Shown here piece by piece: positions 1 through 14,217 of a DNA stretch of 24,473 nucleotides. The translations under genes and the position numbers were made by a program. The notes beneath the pieces were generated by a model, which worked only from the letters and a program-made list of their open reading frames with translations, had not been told where the DNA came from and made no database searches. How positions within the stretch are numbered: the first letter of the stretch is position 1; every line of letters starts with the position of its first letter. Source of the DNA: Candidatus Hermodarchaeota archaeon (GTDB lineage: Archaea > Asgardarchaeota > Heimdallarchaeia > Hodarchaeales > Hodarchaeaceae); contig JBHLKY010000039.1 in the NCBI GenBank assembly GCA_048886185.1, forward strand, positions 1-24,473, written 5' to 3'.

Positions 1-104
1 TCGAAAGCTTCTAAACTCATGAAGCTCAAAGCTATGAGTTGAAGATTCAAAAGGAATGAAGAGAGTAAATAACACTTGTTTGAAAAGGGCTGAGAGTAAC
101 TATC

Positions 105-1928
105 TTGTATGACCAACAATTAGAGCAGATTGAACAGTTGGTGGATCAAGCCAAATATGTTAAAGCATTGAACACGATAACCAACCTTGAACAATCAGAA
201 CTGATGAACAATGAACGATTGGCTTTACAATATCTGAAAAGCACTTTGTACTTGAAGAAGGGGCAACTTAAGGAGGGAAAAAGAGTGGCAGAACATTTAC
301 TAGAAAAAAGTAGAGAAACTGGAAACCAATTACGAGAACTAGATGCTCTCATGAATATTTCTTGGGCCTTACAATGGTTAGGACAAATAAATAAGGGATT
401 ACAACTGGTTAAGAGAGGTGAGAAGCTACTAAAGATTCTTGTTCAAGAACACCAGTCAGGATTGAGAACTAGAGAGGCAGCGCTCCTCTATAGAAAAGGT
501 TCACTTCTTTTAGACCAAGGGAAGCTAAATCTCGCATTTTCTTTCTTGAAAAAAAGTATGTCTTTAAGAGAAAAGGAGGAGGACAATAAAGGTATTTCTG
601 AAACTATGATGGAAATTGGACGATACTACTTTGATAAGGGCGAACTGAACCAAGCCCAAGAATACACCCTGAAAAGCCTAGCTATCAACGAGGCAATTGG
701 CGACCAGCGAGGAATAGCTCATTCTCTAGACAATATCAGTTGGATTTATTCAAATAAAGGCGAACTTAATAAAGCTTTAAACCATTCCCAAAAAAGTCTG
801 GCTATCAGCGAAACAATCGGAGACCAACAAGGAATAGCACAATCTCTAGACACAATCGGTTTTATTTATGCAAGTAAAGGCGAGTTGGACCAAGCCTTAG
901 ATCATTTCCATAAAAGTTTGAACATCAGTGAAGCAATCGGATACCAACATGGAGTAGCTCACGCCCAAAATGGAATTGGTGTTGTAATTGGTTATAAAGG
1001 TGAACCAGCTCAAGAACTAAAACATTATCAGAAAAGTTTGACTATTTATGAAGCCATCGGAAATCCACGACGGATTAGCGTACTCCTCAACAATATCGGA
1101 TATTATTTCGGGGAGCAGGGTGATTTTCGATCTGCCACTGAATATTTTGAAAGATCTCTCACTCTTGCTAGAAAGAATGAATTTGATTTATTGATATCTG
1201 ATATTCTTTATACATCAATTCGGCTTTTTGTCAATGAGCTTCCTTCAGAGACTGTACGGAGTTATTTAGATGAGTTACGCCAAATCAATAAGCGAAATAA
1301 AGACATTCCAAGAATTAGTCAAAGGTTTCGGCTAGCTGAAGCAATCGTTCTGAAAGCCCGCGGAAGATTAACTGATAAAGTGACTGCTCCAAACCTCTTT
1401 CAACAAATCTTTCGGCAGGTAGCTGAGGAAGATGTTATATGGCTTGAGCTGACTGTGGAGGCACTGATCAACTTATGTGAATTACTCTTAGTTGAGTTAG
1501 AAATCACAGGAAATAAAAACACTCTAAATGAATTAAACAAGCTTTCAGAACAATTATTAACCATTTCCAAGGCACAAAATTCTCATTGGTACATTGCTGA
1601 AACATATCTTATCCAATCCAAATTGAAGTTACTAGAGCTAAATTTGGCTGAAGCACAGGAATTATTAACTCAAGCTCACATCATTGCTCAGGAAAAGGGA
1701 CTTCACAGGTTGGAAAGGCTCATTTCCATTGAACACGATTCATTGGTCAGCCATTTAACTACTTGGGATAAAATCATCTCCCAAAAGCTACCTATGAGTG
1801 AAATTATCAAATTGACGCAGATTGAAGAATTTTTAACACGGATAATCCATAAGAGATTGTATCAAAATGAAGAAGAAGTCCTAGACTATGCAAAAAAAGC
1901 TCGTCAGCTTGTTAAAACATGGAAATAA
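105..1928 (+). CDS. Tetratricopeptide repeat protein (40-aa TPR units plus Asgard-type C-terminal helical module)
   Basis: 607-aa ORF with TTG start. Tandem 40-aa repeats of the form KGELxxALxHxxKSLxIxExIGxQxGIAxSL, also visible as ~120-nt DNA repeats at ~610-1080. The C-terminal module (LCELLL...SKLKLLE...AQEKGL...W...LP) is shared with the ORF at 12652. Confidence 0.9.
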   Translation: MYDQQLEQIEQLVDQAKYVKALNTITNLEQSELMNNERLALQYLKSTLYLKKGQLKEGKRVAEHLLEKSRETGNQLRELDALMNISWALQWLGQINKGLQLVKRGEKLLKILVQEHQSGLRTREAALLYRKGSLLLDQGKLNLAFSFLKKSMSLREKEEDNKGISETMMEIGRYYFDKGELNQAQEYTLKSLAINEAIGDQRGIAHSLDNISWIYSNKGELNKALNHSQKSLAISETIGDQQGIAQSLDTIGFIYASKGELDQALDHFHKSLNISEAIGYQHGVAHAQNGIGVVIGYKGEPAQELKHYQKSLTIYEAIGNPRRISVLLNNIGYYFGEQGDFRSATEYFERSLTLARKNEFDLLISDILYTSIRLFVNELPSETVRSYLDELRQINKRNKDIPRISQRFRLAEAIVLKARGRLTDKVTAPNLFQQIFRQVAEEDVIWLELTVEALINLCELLLVELEITGNKNTLNELNKLSEQLLTISKAQNSHWYIAETYLIQSKLKLLELNLAEAQELLTQAHIIAQEKGLHRLERLISIEHDSLVSHLTTWDKIISQKLPMSEIIKLTQIEEFLTRIIHKRLYQNEEEVLDYAKKARQLVKTWK

Positions 1929-2432
1929 GTTTCCTTGGCAGGAGCACAGTGGAAAGTAACTACCAAACATTAGTATACCTAATATCACAGTAAAAATATT
2001 AACCCTGAATTCAGCCCACATTTGAAATGGTAGGGAAATAATGAAACCTAATAATATCTACCATTTATACTTAATGAGGAATGTCGAATAGTATTCTCCA
2101 GAAAGATATCTGTTCCCCATAAATCTTATCACACATATATTTAAGGATTGGATCTTATAAATCATTCTTTTTCGGACATCTCGAGCATACGTGGGAATCC
2201 ATCCAATTATGATTTTTCCAGATGAAAATTCCAGTCAAGGATGATATTCCTTATAGTAACAAATTAAAAATTATATATTTATGAGCTAAAAATCCTTATG
2301 TGATTGTCTTTTAAGTTTTAAGAATTAGAGAGGAAATATTGGATATTTTCTTGTTTATCTGAATAATTTTATGATGTTTTGTGATATAAAGATAATTAAT
2401 TATTAATCCATTATCTTAGAAATTGTTTCGAC

Positions 2433-2645
2433 TCAACCTTTTCGTTGTCTAGTCAAGCGAAGAAATCTTTGTTTGTAGGTCTCAGGCAAAGGTGGTATAT
2501 TTTCAGGATCGTAGATTTTTGGAAGTGGTTTTTCTCTCTTGTAAATATACTTGCATTTTGGATATGCTGCACAACCAATGAATAACCCCTTACCGCTTTT
2601 ACGTTTTCTTTTAACTAATGCATGTCCCCAAGGACATACATGACA
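2433..2645 (-). pseudogene. Topoisomerase-type (zf-C4_Topoisom-like) zinc-ribbon small protein lacking an in-frame start
   Basis: Hand translation gives CHVCPWGHALVKRKRKSGKGLFIGCAAYPKCKYIYKREKPLPKIYDPENIPPLPETYKQRFLRLTRQRKG*. LVKR...G.FIGC..YPKC.Y is the topoisomerase Zn-ribbon signature. An in-frame TGA lies at 2646-2648, and an ATG overlaps the 5' end one base out of frame. Confidence 0.7.
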
Positions 2646-2789
2646 TCAGAACCTATAAATACCAATTGACTTTAAAAAGAATTTTAAGATCCTTGTCAAA
2701 AGATGTTTATTTAATGAAATAATATGTAAAGCTTTGAGGAAAAAACCCTGTCTCAAATACTCTAGCAGAAATGCAAAAAGGAATTCATT

Positions 2790-3647
2790 ATGCCTCGGAA
2801 GTGGAATGATTTAACCGATGATTCAATTGAGAAGCTTAAAGCTGCAAAGCCATTAGCAGAAGTGATCCGAGCTAAGTCCAAACCAGTCACACCAGACGAA
2901 CTTCATCGTGTCTTACTAATCCTTATTAATATGAGAGAAGAAACACCAATATTTATTTCACAGATCTCAGAACTTACTGGCATTGCTAGAATTAAACCCA
3001 TTCTAGATCATTTGCTTGAAAAAGACTTGATTGAGGGAGAATTCTTATCTGTCGCAGTTAGGGATGATGTCTTTATTAAAAAGCAAAGGAAAGGGATGGA
3101 AAAGGAAAATTTGTATACAGAGCACGATGAACAAAACAAGATAATGATCGATTTGCTGAATAGAAAAGCTATACTCATCTCCGCAATCAGGGCGGCTTTT
3201 GAATGCACAGAAATCGATATACCTTCCAGAATAAAATCTTTACTTAAAAACCCCCAAAAAAACCTCCTCACTTTGAGAAATGGCCTATTTCTCATAGAGA
3301 TGCAGAGCCCGAAATTCATATGCCAATTATGTTTAGGAGAAATTTCTGCTAAAACGTATTTTCAGTGTGTGACATGTAAACGGTATACTTGCACTACACA
3401 TTATGTTGAGAGCCAAAAGGTGGGTTATGATAAGTGCACTACATGTGGAAATAAGATGATTTTCTTTCCCTTTATGTGTGAGGGGTGTCAGCTTGACTTC
3501 TCTTCAGTAGATGAGATTAAGGGGAAAAACTGCCCTCTGTGCGGTTTTTTTCTCCCAGACCAGAAGAAACTCATTTCAACCAACATCAAAACGGTTCCTT
3601 CAAGTCAAATGGATCCGTCTCAAGATTTCACTGATGTTAAGAAATAG
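2790..3647 (+). CDS. Winged-helix (PCI-like) domain plus C-terminal RING-like and Zn-ribbon multi-cysteine protein
   Basis: 285 aa. N-terminal ISQISELTGIARIKPILDHLLEKDLIEGEF is wHTH-like. The C-terminus has CQLC-x11-CVTC-x4-CTTH-x11-CTTC followed by CEGC...CPLC. Confidence 0.75.
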   Translation: MPRKWNDLTDDSIEKLKAAKPLAEVIRAKSKPVTPDELHRVLLILINMREETPIFISQISELTGIARIKPILDHLLEKDLIEGEFLSVAVRDDVFIKKQRKGMEKENLYTEHDEQNKIMIDLLNRKAILISAIRAAFECTEIDIPSRIKSLLKNPQKNLLTLRNGLFLIEMQSPKFICQLCLGEISAKTYFQCVTCKRYTCTTHYVESQKVGYDKCTTCGNKMIFFPFMCEGCQLDFSSVDEIKGKNCPLCGFFLPDQKKLISTNIKTVPSSQMDPSQDFTDVKK

Positions 3648-3967
3648 AATACAAAATTAGAATATAAAATTACGAAATCTCCCTTAGGAAGATGTATTGA
3701 GATGCACTTCCCTCTCCTTGAAAAACCCATGAATGTTAAATTACCTTTCTAGCAATGAGTATTCCTGAACCACTCTGTCAAAAAGGTTTGATTTTTCAGA
3801 AAAACTTAGTACTTTTTTCTGAAAAGAGTTAAGGAGTTAAAGGAATTTATTAGTCCGATTTTGAAATAATAAAAAAATGGTACAGATAGATTGCGTAAGG
3901 ACAATCACATTAGTAAGCAAAAACGTAAAATTTATAATCCAATGGTTCAAAAAATTAAAAATATTGC

Positions 3968-5437
3968 TTAATCAACTGGTTGTTGTTTCACTAAATCGAG
4001 TGCCTCCTGTAAATAATCCCGAAATTCTGCATAATCAACAGGTTCTTTCATATCAGATCCGCGATAATGTGTCTTCTGCATCAGTAGTGCCAACTCCTTC
4101 TCAATCTTCTGTTCTAGGTTTTTGAGTTGTAACTCTTTCATTTGTTCCATTGTATGTTTCAATATTTCAAGTGCTTTTGCACCATTATTTTTTAGATAGT
4201 ATGTATATTTCGCTAATAATATTTGCTGTGAAGTATATCCAAATACCGCTTTGGGGTCTCTAAGTAATGGATACTCCCCTAAACGATTCATTATTGTTTC
4301 TATCTCTTTTACTATTCTTTCATCTTCAGTAATCGCAACATTCTCGAATAAAAGATCCATTAAATGTATTGCAACTTCTCTATGATAAAGTGATTCACTT
4401 TCTACCTCCATTAGCTGCTTAAATATTTCTATTGCTTGTGCTTTTTCCTTAAATGACCCGTGTTTCAGAAGTAATGCGTTATCATGTTTTATAAGAAACA
4501 TGGACAAACTATCCTCGTATAATTTATCTCTGAGATCCTCCATTTTCAGCAGCTGTTCTCCCGCTTTCTTCAAAAACAGTCTGTTGTTTTCCATCCTAAA
4601 CCTTTCATAATAATATATAAATAGACTATTATACCCTAAAAATATCATTGAAGGTTGATCTGTTTGAATCTTATATTGCAAACTCTCCTGATGAGATGCT
4701 AGTGCTTCTTTATATTTTCCTTCTTGAAAAAAACAGTACGCTATGTTATCCAATGCTTTAATAATCTCGTTCTCTTGGTTATACTTTTTTGCTGTTACTA
4801 ATCCTTGATTACTGTACTCATGTGCCTTTTGAATATCTCCTTTTAAACTATAAAACCGCGCAAGCGAAATAAGGTTGAATGGTAGATACCTACTATTATA
4901 TTTCTTCCCCACCTCCATTCCTTGTAGGAAGTACTCTTCCGCTTGATCCAGCTTGCCGATTTGTATATACCAATATGCCACACCAAAGTTTAATGATTGA
5001 ACAATGTCCTCTCCATCATCTGGGATTTTCGCGAAGGATTTTCTTCCTTTTTCTATATAAGTAATATTCCGTTCTATCTCCTCTTTTGTCGTTCCTCCTC
5101 GAAAACCCAAGTAATTCATATAATAAATCCCTTCAATCATGTATTTTTCCCATGTGTTTTCTAACTCTAATTTTAAGAATGAATTCTCTGCTAATGCCGC
5201 ATACTTCTTGCTTAATTCTTGATTGTGCCGTATTTGACTGTAGTACAACCGATATGAAAGGTAGAGTATACATAGAAGATATTCATCTTTGAGTTCTGCA
5301 ATTCTCTCCTCTACATCAACCATTATACTAAGGAATTTCTCAATGTTATATTTGGAATAAAGATAGTATTCTGCAATCCAAATCCTTGCAAACGTAATAT
5401 CTCTTGGATCATCTAAAGCATCGGTCATTTCTTCCAT
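3968..5437 (-). CDS. Tetratricopeptide repeat protein
   Basis: 489 aa. TPR-like units (GKLDQAEEYF, KGDIQKAHEYS, EGKYKEALASH) and a C-terminal helical module (LLLKHGSFKEKAQAIEIF...DYLQEAL) related to the other two TPR genes. Confidence 0.85.
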   Translation of the reverse strand: MEEMTDALDDPRDITFARIWIAEYYLYSKYNIEKFLSIMVDVEERIAELKDEYLLCILYLSYRLYYSQIRHNQELSKKYAALAENSFLKLELENTWEKYMIEGIYYMNYLGFRGGTTKEEIERNITYIEKGRKSFAKIPDDGEDIVQSLNFGVAYWYIQIGKLDQAEEYFLQGMEVGKKYNSRYLPFNLISLARFYSLKGDIQKAHEYSNQGLVTAKKYNQENEIIKALDNIAYCFFQEGKYKEALASHQESLQYKIQTDQPSMIFLGYNSLFIYYYERFRMENNRLFLKKAGEQLLKMEDLRDKLYEDSLSMFLIKHDNALLLKHGSFKEKAQAIEIFKQLMEVESESLYHREVAIHLMDLLFENVAITEDERIVKEIETIMNRLGEYPLLRDPKAVFGYTSQQILLAKYTYYLKNNGAKALEILKHTMEQMKELQLKNLEQKIEKELALLMQKTHYRGSDMKEPVDYAEFRDYLQEALDLVKQQPVD

Positions 5438-5919
5438 TTTATTTATATCTCCCTCTATTACATAACAACTAAAGATTTCCTTTGCTTTTTGTGAAATGGG
5501 AGACAGTATTCATTCCTCCGTAGCTCATTCCTAATGATTAGACAATATATTTCTAGCTCCTTAATGTTCTTAACTTGTCTTTATTTTTTTCAAAGATTAT
5601 AAATCTATGTGTTAGACTATGTTATCGTCTCCTCTCTGTTATAGCTTTAAGTTGTATCAATTATGATCTTTCACTCCTGTAAATTTCGATACAGAATTAA
5701 TGAAAAAATTCGGGTTTAAGTGCTTCTAGAATGAAATTACGCAGAAAGACTCCTTGTGGTGTTCCCACGAACGGGCATCTATCTCGTATAAAGAAGGAGG
5801 GATAATATCTAAAAATATCTATTACATATCGATTTTTTCTAAGGAGGGGAAGGAATATCAAGTAGGTTAACTAAATGTTTATTAATGTCAAGATTTTTGT
5901 TATCTTCTTCGCTTTTATT

Positions 5920-6180
5920 TCATTCAGATCCTTTATGGGGAAAAAAGAGTACTGAAAGAATGATTAAACAAACTGACCAAATACTCCAAAGAATAGTTTC
6001 AACTGCCTTGATAATATCAGTACCGTTAACAGTTGTATATCCCCTTTCATTAATACTCTCATTTAGAAGGTTAAAAGAGCTAAAACTGAAGAGAAATGAT
6101 AGAAGAGCTGCCCAAAGTATAATTCCAATTATAACATAACGAATAGATGATGGATTGGTAAAATTTGATTTATTTACCAT
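5920..6180 (-). CDS. Small membrane protein, two predicted TM helices
   Basis: The ORF track starts at 6204, but GAGGT (SD-like) lies just upstream of the ATG at 6180, giving 86 aa. Hydrophobic stretches are YVIIGIILWAALLSFLFSF and ILWSIWSVCLIILSVLFF. Confidence 0.7.
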   Translation of the reverse strand: MVNKSNFTNPSSIRYVIIGIILWAALLSFLFSFSSFNLLNESINERGYTTVNGTDIIKAVETILWSIWSVCLIILSVLFFPHKGSE

Positions 6181-6295
6181 TCTGTTTACCTCTTTCTCGA
6201 GCATTTGTTAAAGCTCGTGTTGACTGGCCTTAGATGAGAATAAAGGTTATATAAAGATATTAGTACATATGACTAATGATATCTGACATTAGTCA

Positions 6296-6550
6296 ATGCA
6301 TAAAGCCAGGAAAAAGAGTGAAACACTCCCTCCTCACCCTAATCACCGATTGGGGGAACTATTTGGAATAGATCTGTTCGACTTCGGGTTGGGACAAGAC
6401 ATAGAGGGACTAACAATAACAAAAGCAAAAGCTGGAAAAATCACAAGACTCTTTTACAAAATTATGAGAGCAGAGAATCAATTTGAAGAAATGGAGAAAA
6501 GGCAAGCCAAGGAGGAACCCTTGTACCAGGCTTATCTTAAGACCTTATAA
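6296..6550 (+). CDS. Hypothetical 84-aa ORF, possibly spurious or a mobile-element remnant
   Basis: Open frame with no recognisable motif. It contains the 41-bp repeat whose second copy (14490) is not in an ORF. Confidence 0.3.
   Translation: MHKARKKSETLPPHPNHRLGELFGIDLFDFGLGQDIEGLTITKAKAGKITRLFYKIMRAENQFEEMEKRQAKEEPLYQAYLKTL
6368..6408 (+). repeat. 41-bp direct repeat, copy 1
   Basis: ATAGATCTGTTCGACTTCGGGTTGGGACAAGACATAGAGGG, 39/41 identical to 14490-14530. Confidence 0.95.
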
Positions 6551-6672
6551 ATTTAGCACTGACAAATATTAGAAATCTCTTATGTTAATTGATTTGATGT
6601 TATTTAATGTCATTCCAGTCATTACTGAATTCGACCCACGACTTTAATTGTTTGATGTACCTTTTAATTTTT

Positions 6673-8148
6673 TTAAAGTTTTTCTGGAGAAAAATCAAAG
6701 AGTTTTCCGATCTTCCTAAATCTTGATCGTTCATAATTAAACCAAAGATCGTCTTTGAGATCTTCAAAGAATACTATAAATTTAGCCCCTCCTGGATTTC
6801 TGGTGTAAAATTCCATAGGTGTCAGGGTGTTCTTCTCATTAGGAAAAAACACTGTAGGAGGGATAGCAAATTCATGTTTGTCAATACTTTGAACCATTAT
6901 TGATGCAAATTCTCCAGAGATTTTTATCCTTCCAGTTTCATTAAATCCTTCATAAATGCCATTCAATCTCTGGAAATGTTTGCGTTCAACAAGAAAATGG
7001 ATTTTTTCCTCAGGAGTACCCGCTATCATGGCTAGAATTGACCCTATTATTGGTCTTGGACCAAGCAAATTATTAGCTAAGGCTATTATTCCAATGTTTA
7101 ATGAAGGTATAAAACTAAAATCAGCTGTTCCACCGAACATATTTCCTCCATGTCCTACCATATAATGTCCATAGAAATCTGAATTTGTAAAAAATCCATA
7201 CCCATAACCCATTGATTTTTGAGGAACATTATTGGAAAGGACTTTTTCAGCCATTGTACCAGGTTTAATAGAATTCTTTTGCATCTCATTAGAAGAAGCT
7301 TTACTAATTATTGTTACATCTTTATAAGTTCCTCCATCAATATGCATCATCATGTAAACCGCCATGTCCTTTACACAGGAGTAAATCCCACCTGCTGCCA
7401 TAAATTCCCATCTGTTCTCAAAAATTCCTATTTTCCTAGTGTTGCCTCCTTTATCTTTTGGATTCACATGATATCCTTGGGCAAGGTTTTCATTATCCTT
7501 TAACTCTTCAGGAAAAAAAGTGGTAGATGTCATCTGCAGTGGTAGAAAAATCCTTTCTTTAATGAACTCTCTATAATCCTCTCCAGTAACCTTTGTGATA
7601 ATCATTCCAAGCATAGCATATGCATAATTATTATAATGGAAATATTCATCGATTTCATGAGAAAATTCCCTACTATTGTTAATAACTCTAAAGAAATCAC
7701 CTTCAGATGACATAGGAACTAGTTTTGCATTAGCAGGAATTATTAATTCCTCTTTGGCCATATTATACGAAAAAGTGTCATTACTAAGATCTGGGATTCC
7801 CGATGTATGATTCATAAGATGTTTAATTGTTATCGGATTACTGTCTGTTCCAAGTTCTAAAGGAATATAATTCTTCACAGGATCCGTAACTTTCAGTTTT
7901 CCCTCATCCACCAGTATCATTATTGCAGTACAAATAAATGATTTAGTGGTTGAAGCTATGTTATAAATGGTGTTTTCATCCGCAGGGAGGTTTTTATCTA
8001 GATTTTTTGCCCCAAAACCTTGTTTGTAAGCTATTTTACCATGTTTAATGATAGCAAAAGATAAGCCACTAATCTTCATCTTTGCCATTTCATCAGCAAT
8101 TAGTCTATCCAACTTGTCGATAATAGATTTATTTAATTCTAAAACCAT
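6673..8148 (-). CDS. Serine hydrolase, class C beta-lactamase/esterase (AmpC/EstB-like) fold
   Basis: Catalytic SxxK (ASTTKSF), YxN (HYNNYAY), LMNHTSGI and HGG (VGHGGN) motifs. AGGAGG SD upstream. No signal peptide. Confidence 0.92.
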   Translation of the reverse strand: MVLELNKSIIDKLDRLIADEMAKMKISGLSFAIIKHGKIAYKQGFGAKNLDKNLPADENTIYNIASTTKSFICTAIMILVDEGKLKVTDPVKNYIPLELGTDSNPITIKHLMNHTSGIPDLSNDTFSYNMAKEELIIPANAKLVPMSSEGDFFRVINNSREFSHEIDEYFHYNNYAYAMLGMIITKVTGEDYREFIKERIFLPLQMTSTTFFPEELKDNENLAQGYHVNPKDKGGNTRKIGIFENRWEFMAAGGIYSCVKDMAVYMMMHIDGGTYKDVTIISKASSNEMQKNSIKPGTMAEKVLSNNVPQKSMGYGYGFFTNSDFYGHYMVGHGGNMFGGTADFSFIPSLNIGIIALANNLLGPRPIIGSILAMIAGTPEEKIHFLVERKHFQRLNGIYEGFNETGRIKISGEFASIMVQSIDKHEFAIPPTVFFPNEKNTLTPMEFYTRNPGGAKFIVFFEDLKDDLWFNYERSRFRKIGKLFDFSPEKL

Positions 8149-8421
8149 ATACTTTTCCTCCTACTAGTAGAGAATTGTTATTTAATAATAATTATTAAAG
8201 TTACTGCCAGTGAATTAACTATATTATTTTCTAATTCCTATTATATATCTTGGAAGGAAATTCTAAACTCGAAATTAATCTGTTGCCAACCAACTTGAAA
8301 TTTTGCTTCAATTTCGACCAACTTATGAGTTTCTTTCAGATAATCAGGAACCACGCCTAATTAGGAATTTTTACATCGGTTATTACATATCTGTTTTAGA
8401 ATAATTGAGAATCTGACTATG

Positions 8422-9261
8422 CTAAACATGTTTTTCTAACCAGTCAGTAAGATCCTTCAACACCATTATTCGATCGTTTTCTAGCTCGTTGTAGACCTCG
8501 TGGTAAAGCCCATCATAGATATTAATCTCCTTATCTTCCATTTTAAAAACATTTATTAGATCTTCCTTGAAATCTTTAACCTTCATCAATCTATCTTCAG
8601 AGCCACACTGTACTAGTAGTGGAAGTGTAAAATTTTTGTAAACATCCACCAATCCATCAATATATCTTGTTATTTCTCCAGCAAGTCTGATAGTTATTTT
8701 TTCTGCATGAACATAGGGATCTTCTTGATATGCCTTTACGACTTCAGGATCGCGACTAAGCACGTTTGGATCTACATTTGGATTAATTGTAAGTTTTGGA
8801 GTTATTTTGGACAATATTTTCATCATCATTTTCAAGAGTTTGGGAAAAGCAGCTGAGCTTGTAGTAGTTCCCGAAAGAATTAATCCAGCCAATAGCTCTT
8901 CATATTTTTGGGCAAAATAAGCTGCAATTATAGCCCCCATTGAATGTCCAAGCATAAAGATTGGCAAATTTGGATATATTTCCTTTATAATGTCATATAC
9001 TTTTTTTTCGTCTTCAATAAATTGATCAAATGAATCAACATAATTACGGGTTCCTTCAGATTTTCCATGCCCTCTGTGATCATCGGCATAGACAGTGTAA
9101 TTGAGCGGGATTAACTCATTTACTACGTTTAGATATCTCCCACTATGTTCAAATCCTCCGTGAACAATTTGAACCACGGCTTTTGGATTATCTGGTAACC
9201 ATGCTTGATAATAAATCTTTAATCCGTTCGCTCCTTCAAATTCTCCTTCTTGGTGATTCAT
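8422..9261 (-). CDS. Alpha/beta hydrolase, lysophospholipase/monoacylglycerol lipase family (Hydrolase_4-like)
   Basis: GHSMG nucleophile elbow, DHRGHGKSEG, acid in GSEDRL and catalytic His in YHEVYNE. Confidence 0.95.
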   Translation of the reverse strand: MNHQEGEFEGANGLKIYYQAWLPDNPKAVVQIVHGGFEHSGRYLNVVNELIPLNYTVYADDHRGHGKSEGTRNYVDSFDQFIEDEKKVYDIIKEIYPNLPIFMLGHSMGAIIAAYFAQKYEELLAGLILSGTTTSSAAFPKLLKMMMKILSKITPKLTINPNVDPNVLSRDPEVVKAYQEDPYVHAEKITIRLAGEITRYIDGLVDVYKNFTLPLLVQCGSEDRLMKVKDFKEDLINVFKMEDKEINIYDGLYHEVYNELENDRIMVLKDLTDWLEKHV

Positions 9262-9613
9262 TTTGAAATCCCATCCTATATTTAGATAAAATAAATAGTG
9301 ATAGTTCTCATTGCCTTAGAACTCAAAACTTTAAAAGGTAATCGTGGCTTGAAATAACAATGTTCTCTCAGAAACTTGAGAGAAATTTAGTAGATTTGGA
9401 AATGAGATTACATCTTTAATCCCACCCATTCATGATGTAGGCCAAACTTTGAAGAAGTATTTTTATGATCTCATGTAAGAGTCAACGAGATTTTAACTTT
9501 AAGGAATTCCCTTCTGTAATTATAAAAAAAGATTCAGAAACAGGAATAAGTTTTGGAAGACCAGAAAATCCCGAGGTTGATATTGCACAAGTTATATATA
9601 ACCAATGCTTCTG

Positions 9614-11410
9614 TTAATATTTCCTTCCAAGCCATTTACGTGATTGCCATAATTCATCAATATTTTTGGCCTTTTCACCATAACCCCAAAAGGGAAATTT
9701 AGCCATAACATCATCCAACAATACCATAGAGCGGTCTAGAAACCTGAAATGCTTAATAAAGAATCTCGCAATGCCATGACTAAATACGAATACTCCATCT
9801 GTTGGCTTGGTAAATGGACAGGCTCGGATACAGTTTGAACAATCCGCACCATTTCGTACCCATTGTTCATAGCATTTTTCTACATCAACATACCACTTAT
9901 ATACCCCAGAATGGTTAGATTTGTAATTATAATCCGGATCGGTTTTGGCTCTGTAATTTGGCTCCCATATAGGCATTTTATCATAAGAAATTGCCTGTGA
10001 TGGGCAATGCTTAGCACATTTCTTACAAACTTTACAGAATTCAGTTACACCGAAGTTTATAGGCTTATCTACTTTCATGGGAAAATCTGTTAGCACTTTT
10101 ACGATTCTTATACGCTGGCCATATTTAGGAGTGATGAGTAACCCATTCCGTCCCAATTGGCCTAGTCCTGCTTTGATCGCTAATGGTACTGATAATCCAA
10201 CCCAGTTATCTGCTGGTATTGCCTTATAGCCTAAATTTCGAATGAATTCAGCAACTGAGGAACCTGTAAATGCCATCCGTGAGTACCCATTCCCCACAGC
10301 CATTGATGCTGGAATTTGTGGTGAAGATTTGATACAATCATAATCCATCTCAATAAGCATCACTATTGCATATTTTATTCCTTTAGGATAGGTTATCTTT
10401 GCTCCCATCATATTATCCGAATATAGGAATTCATAATTATCTAATTTACATATTCCAACATCACAGGCACCATTAACGATTGCAACACGTTTCACTATGT
10501 CAGCATTATGCTGTAAATCTGTACTCTCATATTTCGGTATAAAATGACCAACGCCAGCTGGATTCATTTTCTCTCCTTTTTCTCCACTCATAAATTTCTC
10601 CATGAGCTTTATTGGATCTGTCAAATCTTCTGGGCTTAATTCCTGGTCCATAAGTTCTGAATCCATACCAGCCATAACTCCATCCATCACTTCGGCTGCT
10701 GGGGCACCTCCACCACCTAAGTTCATCATTACTGCCATTATATCTGCAAATTCTGGAAGAGCGCTTTCCCAATCAAGAATTCCTAAATATCCTGTTTGAA
10801 TTGTCCACGCAGCAGATTGTGCAGCAAAATCTAATGGAGAATACCCAGGTTTGTTCCATTTTTTGGACGCTGCGTCGAACATTGATTTTTGGTAACTAGA
10901 AAATGTTGGATCCCATAACATTCGTGACATACACATATTTTTTGATTCAAACTGTTCAATATCATCATCCATTGCATATGGAATTTTTCCCTTTAAGAAC
11001 TGCTTCTCTAGTTCTTTTCTCCGCGCTTGCCGATCAGCTTCACTTAATTTTACTCGCGGTCTTGTGGGTTTCCTTTCTATTTTTCCCATTACACTCTGTA
11101 ATTTCATCATTTCCCTCATTGATGCTTTTAGTTTGAACTTTCCTGATCGCATCGCACTCATTGGATTGATTTTTCCATCATTTACACCAATAAATGTCGC
11201 TGTATCTACGATCATTCTTGGTCCTTTTCCTGTTGGTTCTCCCTCTTGTAGGTCGCTACATAAACCATTCACGATGTTTACATGAAACACTTTTTCTAAA
11301 TCTGTAAACTCGAAAGAAACTGGTTTATTCCATTTTTTGAAACTTTTTTTGTTTCCTTTTAAATTTTCAACTATATTAACTAATATTTCTCTTACTTCTG
11401 CTTCACTCAT
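9614..11410 (-). CDS. rdhA: Reductive dehalogenase (cobalamin, 2x[4Fe-4S]) with N-terminal SCP2 sterol/lipid-binding domain
   Basis: RdhA motifs: RMLWDP, GYSPLDFAAQSAAW, VKRVA..NGACDVGI, GYSRM, AGLGQLGRNGLLITPKYGQRIR, FCKVCKKCAKHCP (10001-10036) and C-x10-CSNCIRACPF (9812-9874). Aa ~1-108 match the SCP2 pattern (DGKINPMSAMRSGKFKLKASMREMMKLQSVM). No twin-arginine signal. Confidence 0.88.
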   Translation of the reverse strand: MSEAEVREILVNIVENLKGNKKSFKKWNKPVSFEFTDLEKVFHVNIVNGLCSDLQEGEPTGKGPRMIVDTATFIGVNDGKINPMSAMRSGKFKLKASMREMMKLQSVMGKIERKPTRPRVKLSEADRQARRKELEKQFLKGKIPYAMDDDIEQFESKNMCMSRMLWDPTFSSYQKSMFDAASKKWNKPGYSPLDFAAQSAAWTIQTGYLGILDWESALPEFADIMAVMMNLGGGGAPAAEVMDGVMAGMDSELMDQELSPEDLTDPIKLMEKFMSGEKGEKMNPAGVGHFIPKYESTDLQHNADIVKRVAIVNGACDVGICKLDNYEFLYSDNMMGAKITYPKGIKYAIVMLIEMDYDCIKSSPQIPASMAVGNGYSRMAFTGSSVAEFIRNLGYKAIPADNWVGLSVPLAIKAGLGQLGRNGLLITPKYGQRIRIVKVLTDFPMKVDKPINFGVTEFCKVCKKCAKHCPSQAISYDKMPIWEPNYRAKTDPDYNYKSNHSGVYKWYVDVEKCYEQWVRNGADCSNCIRACPFTKPTDGVFVFSHGIARFFIKHFRFLDRSMVLLDDVMAKFPFWGYGEKAKNIDELWQSRKWLGRKY

Positions 11411-11454: not shown

Positions 11455-11664
11455 CTAATCACACTGCAAAATGAGTCGACTTAAGTCGACTTTGAGAAAA
11501 TGTTCATATAGTCTTTTTCCACTTTCAGATAACGTCACTTCGACTTTTCTTCTATCTTTTTTAGAATTATGACAGTTGACAAAACCAAATTCAACAAGAC
11601 GGGCGATTCGTTCCGTAGCTGTACTTGGAAATTTTAGATTGAAGAATTTCGTAATTTCTGTCAT
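11455..11664 (-). CDS. MarR-family winged-helix regulator, N-terminally short (possibly pseudogene)
   Basis: STATERIARLVEFGFV...DRRKVEVTLSESG is the MarR wing signature. Only 69 aa. The upstream in-frame segment SIFTINFLGKSKSRT is cut off by TAG at 11710-11712. Confidence 0.7.
   Translation of the reverse strand: MTEITKFFNLKFPSTATERIARLVEFGFVNCHNSKKDRRKVEVTLSESGKRLYEHFLKVDLSRLILQCD
11474..11491. repeat. Perfect 18-bp palindrome
   Basis: AGTCGACTTAAGTCGACT equals its own reverse complement. It lies in the 3' end of the MarR-like gene, ~65-80 bp upstream of the rdhA start. Confidence 0.85.
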
Positions 11665-11868: not shown

Positions 11869-12324
11869 TTACCATTGTTGGGACAGATTTTTTTTCTGTA
11901 AGTTTTGTGTACCCCTAAAGAGTACTTTCTTCATTTCTAGAAAACCATCACATCTGTCCCAATCACCTGAATAAACACACGAATCACATATATTTTTCAT
12001 ATGAGAATATCTAATGAATGAAAAGATGATTAAGATGGAGTAAAAAAATATTAATCCAAAAATTAGTATTAATAGATCTCCGTACAAAAGCAGAAAATAA
12101 AATACTGTTCCTGTAAACACTCCAAAGAATAATCTTCTTATAAATACGAACTTCTCATGAAAAATGCCAATTGAGATAACTATAGCGATCGTAAGGGCAA
12201 TAACAGCTATTATAAATGATAAACTGAGAGAAACCTCAATAATGACTGAAAAAACAAATAGCAGAGCAGCGACAGGGTATGCAACCAGACAACCCTTACA
12301 AACCCATACTCCTCTAATTGGTTC
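11869..12324 (-). pseudogene. 5'-truncated multi-TM membrane protein with CxxC motifs (loosely DUF2085-like)
   Basis: The track ORF 11869..12120 stays open upstream to 12324: EPIRGVWVCKGCLVAYPVAALLFVFSVII...CDSCVYSGDWDRCDGF. There is no start codon before TAA-TGA at 12325-12330. Confidence 0.6.
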
Positions 12325-12651: not shown

Positions 12652-14217
12652 TTGACACTGGAAAGAAGCATCCGAGGAAACATAGGAGATTGCCACAGGA
12701 GCGACTCAGTTTTGGGGCTTGACAAGCTGTACCAATTGATAAATAGCGGACGAATAGACGAGATAGCACGGGAAGTCGAAACACTGGAAGGAGAAGAACA
12801 TATAGAAGGGCAATACTGGAACATTTTCTGGTCATTTTATAAAACACGTGACTTCGAACGGGCTAAAAGAGAAGCTGGTGAATTAATCGGCCAGGAGCCT
12901 GTATCATTGGTAAGTCAGGTCTTCCAGTTACTCATGGAGGCGTTCATTCTCCCTTTCGAGAACAAATCTGATGCAGCCTTGAGTAAGCTTGCTGCTGCAG
13001 GAGAGATAATCACGGCGTTACCAGGAGAAACGGTCAAGAAACAGCTGCTAGAAGCCTGGTCGTTGTACTGGAGAGGTTACTGCAAGTGCGGCATGGGTCT
13101 TGATGATGAAGCTTTAGAGCTATATGCCAGAGCACTGGACATTGCTTTAGCTGGACACTTTCCGTTGAAATACATGGCACCTGACATTCATTTGTGGACG
13201 GGAGTGTCATGCGGCCGTAAAGGTGAATTCCAGTTAGCTCAAGATCATTACGTGAAAAGTCAGCACGGTTTCAGAGAGTTAGGCAATGAATTTATGGAAG
13301 CATTCGCGTTACTAGGTATTGGATTCTGTCACCATCTTCAAGGAGATCTCGATACAGCCCTGGAGAAGTACCTAGGAAGTCTAGAACTCAGCCAGCGAAC
13401 GGGCAATAAAGCAAGGGAGATGAGCGGGCTGTTTGAAATCGGCCATGTTTACTACAGCAAGGGTGAATTCCAACAAGCAGTGAACTGTTATCAACAGAGC
13501 TTGATCCTGTCCAAGAAAGACAAAACGGAACAGGGGTTAATTAGTCAAGTTGACTCACTGTACGGTTTGATTGCTGTCTATCTAGACTTGCAGGATAAAG
13601 GACAGGTCAACCAGCACCTGGTAGAGTTAGAGGAGCTGAGCAAAAGTGAAACCGGTAACAAATTCGGTTATCCTTACGTGGAAGTCCACTATTCATTAGC
13701 AAAAGCGCGCGTACTCAAAACACAGGAGCAATTCAAGGCTAAAGCGCAAGCCAGTGACTTGCTAAGAAATTTGCTAGAATATGATAAACTTGCTAAAAGA
13801 GAACGGTATCTTGTCCTGCTCGAGCTATGCGATCTACTGGCACAGGAAGCCAAGGTGATGGGAGATGAAGCTGTTTACCAAGAAATGAAGGCCATATTCG
13901 GTGATTTAAAGACTCTTGTCCGTGGTTGGAATACTGCACCTTATACCATCGACATATTGATCCTGGAGGCCAAACTCGCGCTGGTTGAGGGTGATATGGA
14001 GCAAGCATTCACAATACTGGAACGGGCACGGGAGCTAGCCGAAAAGAAAGGACTCGGTTACCTGACAGGCAAGGTGCAGGACCAGCAAGAACAGGTCAGG
14101 AAAGCACTAGACCAATGGCAGCAGCTGCTCGATAGGAACGCTCCCCTGCAGGAACGGCTGATGATGGCTGAACTGGAATTGTACATCAGAACCGCCATCA
14201 AGAAGTTCGAATTATGA
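12652..14217 (+). CDS. Tetratricopeptide repeat protein with atypically high GC
   Basis: 521 aa, with TPR units (KGEFQLAQDHY, QGDLDTALEKY, KGEFQQAVNCY) and the same C-terminal module as ORF 105. The true start may be the TTG at 12712 (AGGAG at 12697-12701). Confidence 0.88.
   Translation: MTLERSIRGNIGDCHRSDSVLGLDKLYQLINSGRIDEIAREVETLEGEEHIEGQYWNIFWSFYKTRDFERAKREAGELIGQEPVSLVSQVFQLLMEAFILPFENKSDAALSKLAAAGEIITALPGETVKKQLLEAWSLYWRGYCKCGMGLDDEALELYARALDIALAGHFPLKYMAPDIHLWTGVSCGRKGEFQLAQDHYVKSQHGFRELGNEFMEAFALLGIGFCHHLQGDLDTALEKYLGSLELSQRTGNKAREMSGLFEIGHVYYSKGEFQQAVNCYQQSLILSKKDKTEQGLISQVDSLYGLIAVYLDLQDKGQVNQHLVELEELSKSETGNKFGYPYVEVHYSLAKARVLKTQEQFKAKAQASDLLRNLLEYDKLAKRERYLVLLELCDLLAQEAKVMGDEAVYQEMKAIFGDLKTLVRGWNTAPYTIDILILEAKLALVEGDMEQAFTILERARELAEKKGLGYLTGKVQDQQEQVRKALDQWQQLLDRNAPLQERLMMAELELYIRTAIKKFEL

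What the first reader, a model, noticed from the sequence alone, without database searches (positions are those of the whole stretch)
9614..11410. SCP2 lipid-carrier domain fused to a reductive dehalogenase in place of the Tat signal
Seen: a complete RdhA core (cobalamin-binding region, GYSRM and GQRIR active-site-type motifs, two Fe-S motifs) preceded by ~108 aa matching the SCP2 pattern. There is no twin-arginine peptide and no small rdhB-like anchor gene next to it. Known: respiratory RdhAs are Tat-exported with RdhB, catabolic ones are cytoplasmic, the fold is shared with epoxyqueuosine reductase QueG, and SCP2 binds fatty acids, acyl-CoAs, sterols and isoprenoids. Inference: a cytoplasmic B12 reductase with a built-in hydrophobic-substrate carrier, acting on halogenated lipids or on a non-halogen lipid substrate such as an epoxide. 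I do not know of a characterised SCP2-RdhA fusion, but cannot exclude that it has been noted in Asgard genomes.
Basis: partly seen in the sequence, partly recalled or inferred. Interest (0 to 1): 0.82.

Follow-up and report, generated by a model that had tools for sequence, protein, structure and literature searches.

The report
SCP2 lipid-binding domain fused to dehalogenase
One species of Asgard (Hodarchaeales-type) archaeon has a real gene in which a lipid-binding SCP2 domain is joined to the front of a vitamin-B12/iron-sulfur reductive dehalogenase-type enzyme. The combination was not found in any other organism searched, and it hints, without proving, that this enzyme works on greasy substrates.

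Summary
Window 9614-11410 (-) is one uninterrupted 598-aa frame. It has an N-terminal SCP2 domain (Pfam above cutoff; confident SCP2 fold), a roughly 15-aa basic/Pro linker, and a complete PceA-like RdhA: TIGR02486 at 206 bits against a cutoff of 160, catalytic Tyr376/Asn402/Arg435, and eight Fe-S cysteines. There is no Tat signal, no membrane helix and no RdhB-like partner.

The fusion is not an assembly artefact. It recurs as at least five micro-variants in NCBI and Logan assemblies, and contigs from other samples and another study span the junction.

It is, however, confined to one species. None of the following has it: 40 relatives, 56 RdhAs in 83 genomes of the class, 80 RdhA loci from other phyla, or two billion-scale protein searches. 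The whole Asgard clade already lacks Tat, so SCP2 did not replace a signal peptide.

The core belongs to a small paralog subfamily with a Met-rich insertion and shows changes next to the catalytic residues.

Most likely it is a soluble corrinoid reductase with a tethered module that captures hydrophobic ligands. That role is inferred, not shown.

This scan earlier noted bacterial QueG/RdhA-like proteins with a C-terminal SCP2 on other DNA. I did not test those notes here.

The parts
9614..11410 (-). Whole fused gene: 598 aa plus stop, SCP2-linker-RdhA
   Evidence: Single frame. The same 598-aa product occurs in 5 other near-identical variants from NCBI and Logan assemblies.
11081..11410 (-). 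SCP2 domain, aa 1-110
   Evidence: PF02036 at 28.8 bits, above the 21.3 cutoff. AF2 pLDDT 88.7 with an SCP2 alignment. Foldseek top hits are all SCP2 structures. Groups at 96/89 support with Asgard stand-alone SCP2 genes.
11039..11080 (-). Linker, aa 111-124: basic and Pro-rich, low model confidence
   Evidence: pLDDT 30-53 in the full-length model. No relative aligns here. An X5 contig (10937-11127) bridges it.
10757..11038 (-). Conserved N-terminal RdhA region, aa 125-218, shared with the ~405-aa Asgard RdhAs
   Evidence: Aligns with the N-termini of P0003-P0006 and others. pLDDT about 90.
10580..10756 (-). 59-aa Met-rich, acidic insertion, aa 219-277, shared in kind with P0003 and P0007 only
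   Evidence: More than 80% of aligned relatives are gapped here. Met 9/59, Asp+Glu 13/59. Low-confidence helices.
9617..10579 (-). Corrinoid-binding catalytic core and 2x[4Fe-4S] region, aa 278-598, with Tyr376, Asn402, Arg435 and Cys459/462/465/469/513/524/527/531
   Evidence: TIGR02486 at 206.5 bits. PceA alignments. Invariant columns. pLDDT above 90. Foldseek to 8q4h_A at E 7.6e-27.
11455..11664 (-). 69-aa MarR-like fragment 44 nt upstream on the same strand. It has only the recognition helix, wing and following helix, and is probably a remnant.
   Evidence: PF01047 profile positions 21-59 only, 20 bits, below cutoff. Weak FabT/LdtR-type matches. No longer frame upstream.

Best explanation
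The gene encodes a soluble, cytoplasmic member of the reductive-dehalogenase (RdhA, class III cobalamin/2x[4Fe-4S]) family. Its core is PceA-like and keeps the catalytic Tyr/Asn/Arg set.

In one Hodarchaeales-type species, a divergent RdhA paralog acquired an N-terminal SCP2 domain on a flexible linker of about 15 residues. That paralog already carried a Met-rich insertion, shared with two relatives. The SCP2 domain derives from the Asgard family of stand-alone SCP2 genes.

The most likely working model has three steps. SCP2 binds a hydrophobic molecule, or docks on the membrane surface, and so raises the local concentration of a poorly soluble substrate at the entrance of the active-site channel. 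The corrinoid, reduced through the two Fe-S clusters by an unidentified cytoplasmic donor (probably a ferredoxin), then carries out reductive chemistry. By homology that chemistry is most likely dehalogenation of a lipophilic organohalide. The corrinoid itself would have to be imported.

Shown: the architecture, its reality in nature, the family assignments, conservation of the catalytic and cluster residues, and the restricted distribution.

Inferred: the cytoplasmic location, the role of SCP2, the substrate class and the electron donor.
For: - Architecture and family scores.
- PceA is the closest solved relative by sequence (183 and 161 bits) and by fold (E 7.6e-27).
- Tyr376/Asn402/Arg435 and eight Cys are invariant. 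They match the PceA Tyr246/Asn272/Arg305 set reported as conserved in Asgard RDases (PMC6737245).
- SCP2 fold is confident, and its closest structures include SCP2 domains that recruit hydrophobic substrates in alkylsulfatases and MFE-2.
- The SCP2 sequence keeps the family's conserved blocks.
- The fusion occurs in at least five micro-variants from several assemblies. A 4886-bp contig of another sample spans the gene, and a contig of another study bridges the linker.
- Readable population SNPs are 7 synonymous to 2 nonsynonymous.
- The fused SCP2 is only about 41% identical to the genome's own stand-alone copy, so this is not a fresh duplication.
- The fused core has the longest branch in its clade, and it departs from over 85% consensus next to the catalytic residues (T372V, G401D, V434I) and in the N-terminal region, where its sister P0003 keeps the consensus. 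This fits an altered substrate pocket.
- No signal peptide or TM segment.
- CobS and CobD/CbiB were not found in the 96%-complete genome.
Against: - The fusion is restricted to one species. No SCP2 gene is adjacent to or fused with RdhA in 80 other RdhA loci, 40 relatives or 83 genomes of the class, so no comparative signal shows that SCP2 and RdhA cooperate.
- There is no expression, ligand or activity evidence.
- In-frame ATGs at residues 101, 102 and 108 could allow an SCP2-less product.
- The flanks hold gene remnants (a MarR fragment, a truncated membrane-protein frame and a 109-bp relic), so the locus is a rearranged region where an accidental fusion is plausible.
- The departures from consensus near the active site could equally reflect relaxed constraint.
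- The SNP count is too small to test selection on the SCP2 part alone.
Confidence: 0.5

Rival explanations
1. Real but functionally indifferent fusion. A recent, lineage-specific rearrangement placed an SCP2 coding segment in frame before an RdhA paralog. The enzyme works like its ~405-490-aa relatives, and SCP2 contributes nothing specific, at most solubility or oligomerisation.
For: Single-species distribution. No SCP2-RdhA neighbourhood elsewhere. Gene remnants on both sides of the gene. The sister P0003 works without SCP2, and P0007 even lacks the N-terminal region.
Against: The SCP2 part keeps the family's conserved blocks and folds confidently. It is about 41-47% identical to every stand-alone relative, so it has persisted and diverged well beyond a fresh duplication. 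The frame is intact in all variants, with mostly synonymous SNPs.
Confidence: 0.25
2. SCP2 is a membrane- or quinone-docking module. It binds menaquinone-like isoprenoid quinols or the membrane surface and so takes over the role that RdhB plays for respiratory RdhAs, linking the enzyme to an electron-transport chain from the cytoplasmic side.
For: The core is closer to quinone-dependent respiratory PceA, including the RdhB complex 8q4h, than to catabolic NpRdhA. UbiJ-type SCP2 domains that bind isoprenoid quinone intermediates are among the structural matches. No reductase domain or dedicated donor gene lies nearby.
Against: No comparative or structural evidence for quinone binding. The closest SCP2 relatives are small stand-alone proteins next to aldehyde:ferredoxin oxidoreductase and sugar-acid genes, not quinone genes. 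In the known complex RdhB is a membrane-integral quinol site, and a soluble SCP2 is not an obvious substitute.
Confidence: 0.1
3. Non-halogen chemistry on a lipid. The corrinoid core reduces an epoxide or another group on a lipophilic molecule, as QueG does on epoxyqueuosine, rather than removing a halogen.
For: The superfamily includes non-dehalogenating QueG. No Asgard RdhA has been assayed. There are departures from consensus next to the catalytic residues.
Against: QueG similarity is marginal: 46 bits against a cutoff of 200, 31 bits to PDB QueG, Foldseek E 1.5e-6. The PceA-type Tyr/Asn/Arg set is intact.
Confidence: 0.08
4. The gene is part of a co-regulated 'hydrolyse-and-reduce' lipid module: MarR - SCP2-RdhA - alpha/beta hydrolase - beta-lactamase-family esterase.
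For: Same-strand order. Hydrolase_4 (MGL/lysophospholipase-like, 234.6 bits) and Beta-lactamase/Pab87 (209.4 bits) lie downstream. P0003 also has a Hydrolase_4 neighbour.
Against: The intergenic gaps of 352 and 273 bp are long, and the first holds a relic of another gene. The MarR is a 69-aa fragment. The window's hydrolase has no detectable similarity to the one beside P0003 (tblastn E<=1e-5 found nothing). The arrangement is seen in this species only.
Confidence: 0.07
5. Assembly chimera or frameshift artefact joining two separate genes.
For: MAG-derived contig. The architecture is unique to this cluster.
Against: Identical architecture in several NCBI and Logan assemblies with distinct SNPs. 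A 4886-bp contig from another sample spans the gene, and a contig from an independent study bridges the linker with no joints or indels. No stop or frame change anywhere.
Confidence: 0.02

Closest known systems
Tat-less ~400-aa Asgard 'putative reductive dehalogenases' (Loki/Thor/Heimdall/Hodarchaeales; Manoharan et al. 2019, PMC6737245), including this genome's own 406-aa copy on contig C26
   Same: Same RdhA clade: 45-59% identity over aa ~125-598. No Tat signal, no RdhB. Conserved PceA-type Tyr/Asn/Arg and two Fe-S motifs.
   Different: They have no SCP2 domain and no 59-aa Met-rich insertion. In the genus the conventional copy sits in a conserved NurA-RdhA-2-hydroxyacid-dehydrogenase arrangement, which the fused paralog lacks. 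Known Asgard N-terminal additions are extra 4Fe-4S domains, not SCP2.
P0003 (490 aa, GCA_016839505.1) and P0007 (352 aa, GCA_016840305.1): the insertion-bearing RdhA subfamily
   Same: Sister sequences in a clade with 100% support, 55-63% identity. They share an insertion at the same site and the longer loop between the Fe-S motifs.
   Different: Neither has SCP2 in frame or upstream. P0003 keeps the family consensus at the positions where the fused protein departs from it.
PceA, respiratory tetrachloroethene reductive dehalogenase (PDB 8Q4H, 4UQU)
   Same: Closest solved structure by sequence and fold. The catalytic Tyr246/Asn272/Arg305 equivalents and both clusters are conserved.
   Different: PceA is Tat-exported and anchored by RdhB. 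The window protein has neither and carries SCP2 plus an internal insertion.
Catabolic NpRdhA/BhbA-type cytoplasmic reductive dehalogenases (PDB 4RAS, 6ZXU)
   Same: Cytoplasmic, Tat-less RdhAs. The core aligns at 107 bits with Foldseek E about 1e-17.
   Different: They are more distant than PceA. Some members of that class carry a C-terminal NAD(P)H-reductase module, and no such domain is present here.
Enzymes with a built-in SCP2 substrate-recruiting domain: alkylsulfatases SdsA1/PisA1 (2CFU, 2YHE) and peroxisomal MFE-2 (1IKT); also UbiJ (6H6P)
   Same: Same SCP2 fold, TM 0.6-0.7. The design principle is the same: a catalytic domain acting on a hydrophobic molecule joined to SCP2.
   Different: The catalytic domains and chemistry are different, and in those enzymes SCP2 is C-terminal. 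The functional analogy is from my own knowledge of those families and was not tested here.
Bacterial 'QueG/RdhA-like Fe-S protein + C-terminal SCP2' family, noted earlier in this scan (e1-1118389, e1-702272, e1-5199241), and atlas clusters 'SCP2 + Fer4' of 440-550 aa
   Same: An SCP2 domain combined with a Fe-S protein, which the notes call B12-type, often beside a MarR or TetR gene. A MarR fragment also lies upstream here.
   Different: Those proteins have SCP2 at the C-terminus and a core described as QueG-like, not a TIGR02486 RdhA, and they are bacterial. I hold no member of that family and did not test the claim. The Fer4+SCP2 proteins I could test (P0135, P0153) show no RdhA or QueG core.

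Membership tests
Reductive dehalogenase RdhA (TIGR02486 / PF13486; class III cobalamin enzymes) | Scores above the curated family cutoff | tested here: met
   TIGR02486 at 206.5 bits against a cutoff of 160.35. PF13486 alone is partial at 18.6 bits, below 24.3.
Reductive dehalogenase RdhA | Two Fe-S cluster binding motifs C-terminal to the corrinoid core | tested here: met
   C459/462/465/469 and C513/524/527/531, invariant in 69 aligned sequences.
Reductive dehalogenase RdhA | PceA-type active-site Tyr, Asn and Arg | tested here: met
   Tyr376, Asn402 and Arg435 align with PceA 'CYSRM', 'SCNGVG' and 'VRLTKV' and are invariant. The residue set is as listed in PMC6737245.
Reductive dehalogenase RdhA | RdhA fold | tested here: met
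   AF2 core pLDDT above 90. Foldseek to 8q4h_A at E 7.6e-27 and to 4ur3 at E about 2e-22.
Reductive dehalogenase RdhA | Binds a corrinoid and dehalogenates an organohalide | not testable with these tools
   Needs biochemistry. No Asgard RdhA has been assayed, according to the papers read.
Respiratory RdhA subclass (PceA type) | N-terminal Tat signal and adjacent rdhB membrane anchor (or N-terminal TM helices) | tested here: not met
   The N-terminus is SCP2, and there is no TM segment. No rdhB-like neighbour. The upstream hydrophobic frame is unlinked to RdhA in a congener.
Self-sufficient catabolic RdhA subclass (RdhA fused to a C-terminal reductase) | C-terminal flavin/NAD(P)H and 2Fe-2S reductase module | tested here: not met
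   No such Pfam or NCBIfam domain. The protein ends about 30 aa after the RDH model match.
SCP2 (PF02036) | Scores above the Pfam gathering cutoff | tested here: met
   28.8 bits against 21.3, aa 19-108. 32.9 bits in the genome scan. phmmer relatives are strong PF02036 proteins.
SCP2 (PF02036) | SCP2 alpha/beta fold | tested here: met
   pLDDT 88.7, pTM 0.77. 46 of 46 significant Foldseek hits are SCP2 structures.
SCP2 (PF02036) | Binds a lipid or other hydrophobic ligand in an internal tunnel | not testable with these tools
   Needs binding assays or a structure with ligand.
Epoxyqueuosine reductase QueG (TIGR00276) | Scores above the family cutoff / is closest to QueG | tested here: not met
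   46 bits against a cutoff of 200. 31 bits to PDB QueG against 183 to PceA. Foldseek E 1.5e-6 against 7.6e-27.

The most novel reading that the evidence does not exclude
An Asgard archaeon converted a PceA-like corrinoid reductase into an enzyme for lipid-phase substrates. It did so by adding a lipid-transfer (SCP2) domain and a methionine-rich flexible lid and by remodelling residues beside the catalytic Tyr/Asn/Arg. The enzyme would pull membrane-dissolved organohalides, such as halogenated fatty acids, lipids or alkyl-phenols, out of the bilayer and dehalogenate them in the cytoplasm. This would be the first RdhA with a built-in substrate-delivery module. If the untested bacterial QueG-like/SCP2 family is real, it would also be an independent second case of SCP2 being recruited to class III cobalamin enzymes.
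Probability: 0.3. Interest if true: 0.65.

Novelty: new variant of a known kind. Interest (0 to 1): 0.45.

Why it matters
What the abundant Tat-less RdhA genes of Asgard archaea do is an open question. No member has been assayed, and their substrates and electron donors are unknown.

A natural fusion to a lipid-binding domain is a rare, testable clue that at least this paralog deals with hydrophobic molecules. It also offers a convenient experiment: the same enzyme with and without SCP2, and the isolated SCP2 domain as bait for its ligand.

It adds a new accessory domain to the known RdhA architectures (Tat+RdhB, N-terminal TM helices, N-terminal ferredoxin, C-terminal reductase).

Its weight is limited because it occurs in a single species and has no comparative support for a wider SCP2-RdhA partnership.

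Tried and rejected
1. Combined SCP2+RdhA alignment for one full-length fold. MAFFT placed the stand-alone SCP2 rows inside the RdhA part twice, so the modules were folded separately. The full-length model therefore says nothing about how SCP2 sits on the core.
2. Complex prediction of the SCP2 module against the RdhA core gave no verdict. It is not used as evidence either way.
3. RNA evidence: no RNA holder was listed for the gene.
4. Run X7 (small share of words) laid nothing.
5. Precedents among relatives of this SCP2. P0135, P0153 and P0144 are ferredoxin (RnfB-like) + SCP2 proteins. The others are SDR/MaoC (MFE-2-like) or tandem SCP2 proteins. hhalign, NCBIfam and PDB searches found no RdhA or QueG core in those tested (P0135, P0153, P0144).
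6. SCP2-profile search among longer proteins returned only the window's own cluster. By the tool's own caveat this is weak negative evidence.
7. Hydrolase_4 as a conserved partner: rejected, because the window's hydrolase is not detectably related to the one next to P0003.
8. The upstream hydrophobic frame as an RdhB analogue: rejected. Its homolog in G015 lies about 150 kb from that genome's RdhAs.
9. Cobalamin riboswitch or any other Rfam RNA around the gene: none. No tRNA in the window.
10. A second copy of the 109-bp downstream element in this genome: none at the DNA or protein level.
Full report
**1. What is there**

Window 9614-11410 (minus strand) is one open frame of 598 codons. A stop lies four codons upstream of the ATG, and nothing interrupts the frame.

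- Pfam finds SCP2 (PF02036) at aa 19-108: 28.8 bits against a gathering cutoff of 21.3. It also finds a 4Fe-4S dicluster domain at 459-533.
- NCBIfam's reductive-dehalogenase model TIGR02486 scores 206.5 bits against a cutoff of 160.35 over aa 337-569. The QueG model reaches only 46 bits against a cutoff of 200.
- The protein has no membrane-spanning segment. The maximum 19-residue hydropathy is 1.19. Its N-terminus is the SCP2 fold itself, so there is no signal peptide.

**2. Is the SCP2 assignment sound?**

Yes.

- An exhaustive HMMER search with aa 1-125 against 1.84 billion representatives gave 77 hits. Those checked are clear SCP2 proteins. The best is a 112-aa stand-alone protein at 45% identity.
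- Folded with an alignment of 36 such sequences, the module reaches mean pLDDT 88.7.
- All 46 Foldseek matches at E<=0.001 are SCP2 structures: archaeal AF1534, the SCP2-like domains of alkylsulfatases, the MFE-2 SCP-2L domain, UbiJ, and insect and yeast SCP2.
- The sequence keeps the subfamily's conserved blocks.

**3. Is the core a true RdhA?**

Yes, as far as sequence and fold can tell.

- The nearest solved proteins are respiratory PceA of Desulfitobacterium (8Q4H, 183 bits) and Sulfurospirillum (4UQU, 161 bits). Catabolic NpRdhA follows at 107 bits, and QueG is far behind at 31 bits.
- Foldseek on the AF2 model gives the same order.
- In an alignment of 69 relatives, Tyr376, Asn402, Arg435 and all eight Fe-S cysteines are invariant.
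- These three residues align with the PceA Tyr246/Asn272/Arg305 set that Manoharan et al. reported as conserved in Asgard RDases (PMC6737245).

**4. Is the fusion real?**

Yes.

- The 90%-identity cluster holds six full-length 598-aa sequences and one fragment, from four NCBI records and several Logan assemblies. They differ by a few substitutions: K21R/K22E, T264A, I481T, P492L, S501T.
- Two Logan contigs from different runs carry the whole gene.
- Laying contigs from other samples on the region showed three things. A 4886-bp contig spans the entire gene. A contig from an independent estuary study covers 10937-11127 across the linker. There are no joints or indels.
- These are contigs, not raw reads, which is a limitation.
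- Of the nine SNPs readable at the DNA level, seven are synonymous.

**5. How widespread is it?**

It was found in one species only.

- Word-indexed searches of 5.8 billion proteins, using the SCP2 region and using an SCP2 profile against longer proteins, returned only the window's own cluster. The exhaustive HMMER search found no other SCP2 joined to an RdhA.
- None of 40 related genomes has the fusion, including 21 species of the same genus. They carry a 403-408-aa RdhA and a separate SCP2 gene of about 113 aa.
- Among 56 RdhAs above the family cutoff in 83 genomes of the class, open frames run from 215 to 506 aa. The window's is 602 aa.
- In 80 RdhA loci from many archaeal and bacterial phyla (1.07 Mb with flanks), an HMM of this SCP2 subfamily hit nothing, either in frame or within 10 kb. 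It scored 127 bits on the window as positive control.
- So there is no Rosetta-stone signal for a general SCP2-RdhA partnership.

**6. Where did the parts come from?**

- The core groups at 100% support with two Asgard sequences, P0003 (490 aa) and P0007 (352 aa). These share an insertion at the same site. The clade sits among the Hodarchaeales-type ~405-aa RdhAs, and the fused protein has the longest branch.
- Neither relative has SCP2 in frame or upstream.
- The genome's other RdhA, a 406-aa ORF on contig C26, belongs to the conventional genus-wide group. That group keeps a NurA-RdhA-2-hydroxyacid-dehydrogenase arrangement in 8 of 9 loci examined.
- The SCP2 part falls at 96/89 support in a clade of Asgard stand-alone SCP2 genes. 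This includes the genome's own copy, which lies in an AFOR-SCP2-aldolase-FGGY cluster. The fused part is only about 41% identical to that copy.
- The fusion is therefore not a fresh duplication. The domain has been kept and has diverged.

**7. Peculiarities of the fused paralog**

- A 59-aa insertion (aa 219-277) is Met-rich (9 of 59, against 5.5% overall) and acidic. It is modelled as low-confidence helices.
- The protein departs from over 85% consensus at a dozen positions. Three lie next to catalytic residues (T372V, G401D, V434I), and five lie in the N-terminal region (153-195). The sister P0003 keeps the consensus at nine of these twelve, including all of those named.
- This fits either a re-shaped substrate pocket or relaxed constraint.

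**8. Context**

- Upstream on the same strand lie a 69-aa fragment of a MarR-type regulator and a hydrophobic frame (11872-12324). That frame has a genuine 209-aa homolog in a congener, about 150 kb from that genome's RdhAs, so it is not an RdhB analogue. Here it looks truncated.
- Downstream, after 352 bp, come a Hydrolase_4 alpha/beta hydrolase and, after a further 273 bp, a beta-lactamase/Pab87-family protein.
- The first gap contains a 109-bp piece with an open frame. In three metagenomes this piece continues into other sequence at higher depth, so it looks like a relic of another gene.
- The hydrolase is not related to the one beside P0003.
- I therefore do not support a conserved 'MarR-RdhA-lipase-esterase' module. 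The locus looks like a rearranged region.
- CobS and CobD/CbiB were not found in the 96%-complete genome, so any corrinoid is probably imported.

**9. Mechanism**

Shown:
- a soluble SCP2-linker-RdhA polypeptide with intact catalytic and cluster residues.

Inferred:
- SCP2, tethered by a flexible linker of about 15 residues (pLDDT 30-53), captures a hydrophobic molecule or docks on the membrane and feeds the active site. This is by analogy with SCP2 domains of alkylsulfatases and MFE-2, and the analogy rests on my own knowledge of those enzymes.
- Electrons come from an unidentified cytoplasmic donor.

I give this model about 0.5. The rivals are a functionally indifferent fusion (0.25), quinone or membrane docking for electron supply (0.1), non-halogen chemistry (0.08), an operonic lipid module (0.07) and an artefact (0.02).

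One caveat: in-frame ATGs at residues 101, 102 and 108 could give an SCP2-less product.

**10. Comparison with what is known, and novelty**

- Published RdhA architectures comprise Tat+RdhB, N-terminal TM helices, an extra N-terminal ferredoxin domain in Thor/Heimdall proteins, and C-terminal reductase modules.
- No paper in the searched library combines SCP2 or 'sterol carrier protein' with reductive dehalogenase. The one Asgard paper that mentions SCP-2 treats a stand-alone homolog.
- Earlier notes of this scan describe a bacterial family of QueG/RdhA-like Fe-S proteins with a C-terminal SCP2, often with MarR or TetR. Atlas clusters 'SCP2 + Fer4' fit that description. I could not obtain a member and did not test the claim. 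The Fer4+SCP2 proteins I could test have no RdhA or QueG core.
- The window's protein is a different thing: a bona fide RdhA with SCP2 at the N-terminus.

I class it as a new variant of a known kind. It is real and unreported, and useful as an experimental handle on Asgard RdhA function. Its single-species distribution and the lack of functional evidence limit its weight.

Noticed in passing
window 9484-9592: A 109-bp piece in the gap between the RdhA stop and the hydrolase start has an open + strand frame (35 codons). In three metagenome runs it continues into different flanking sequence at 2-3x depth. It looks like a relic of a gene whose intact copy lives elsewhere in the community. No second copy exists in this assembly at the DNA or protein level.
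   Followed up: partly
window 11455-11664 (-): A 69-aa MarR-like fragment 44 nt upstream of the fused gene, holding only the recognition helix, wing and next helix. It has no N-terminal half in any frame, so it is probably a pseudogene remnant. MarR regulators accompany rdhA genes and the bacterial Fe-S/SCP2 family noted earlier in this scan.
   Followed up: partly
window 11872-12324 (-): A hydrophobic 151-codon frame with CxxC motifs at both ends and no good start codon. It is 48% identical to a 209-aa frame in a congener (G015:C1:1065151-1065561), so it is a real membrane-protein family of unknown function, apparently truncated here. Gene callers called an opposite-strand 63-aa ORF instead.
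   Followed up: partly
L021 (G000:C26) 6190-8433; L011-L018: The genome's conventional 406-aa RdhA is followed after 10 bp by a D-2-hydroxyacid-dehydrogenase-family gene and preceded by NurA/HerA genes. The RdhA-dehydrogenase pair is conserved in 8 of 9 same-genus loci, suggesting a functional pair, possibly an NAD(P)H link.
   Followed up: partly
L023 (G000:C28) 90-2204 (-): A 704-aa arylsulfotransferase-family protein (PF05935) with a weak N-terminal SCP2-like segment (25.2 bits, about aa 93-178), next to a sulfotransferase. This is a second enzyme in the genome with an SCP2-like N-terminal extension.
   Followed up: no
L022 (G000:C27) 1030-6655; contig of P0127: The stand-alone SCP2 most like the fused domain sits in a conserved cluster: aldehyde:ferredoxin oxidoreductase - SCP2 - class II aldolase - FGGY kinase - 2-hydroxyacid dehydrogenase.
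   Followed up: partly
P0135, P0153, P0144; atlas clusters: Proteins that join an RnfB-like ferredoxin dicluster module to a C-terminal SCP2 (297-505 aa), and sizeable bacterial atlas clusters annotated SCP2 + Fer4 (440-550 aa). An uncharacterised pairing of electron-transfer modules with a lipid-binding domain.
   Followed up: partly
L020 6001-7059 (P0007): The sister RdhA P0007 starts inside the insertion region and lacks the conserved N-terminal ~200 aa. No matching sequence lies upstream, so it is a naturally truncated form or a rearranged gene.
   Followed up: partly
whole genome G000: No CobS (PF02654) and no CobD/CbiB (PF03186) were found in a 96%-complete genome that carries two RdhA genes. 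It is probably dependent on imported, complete corrinoids.
   Followed up: partly
window 105-1928, 3968-5437, 12652-14217: Three large TPR/MalT-like repeat proteins lie in one 24-kb window. The third lies in a stretch of raised GC (0.46 against about 0.32-0.39 elsewhere).
   Followed up: no
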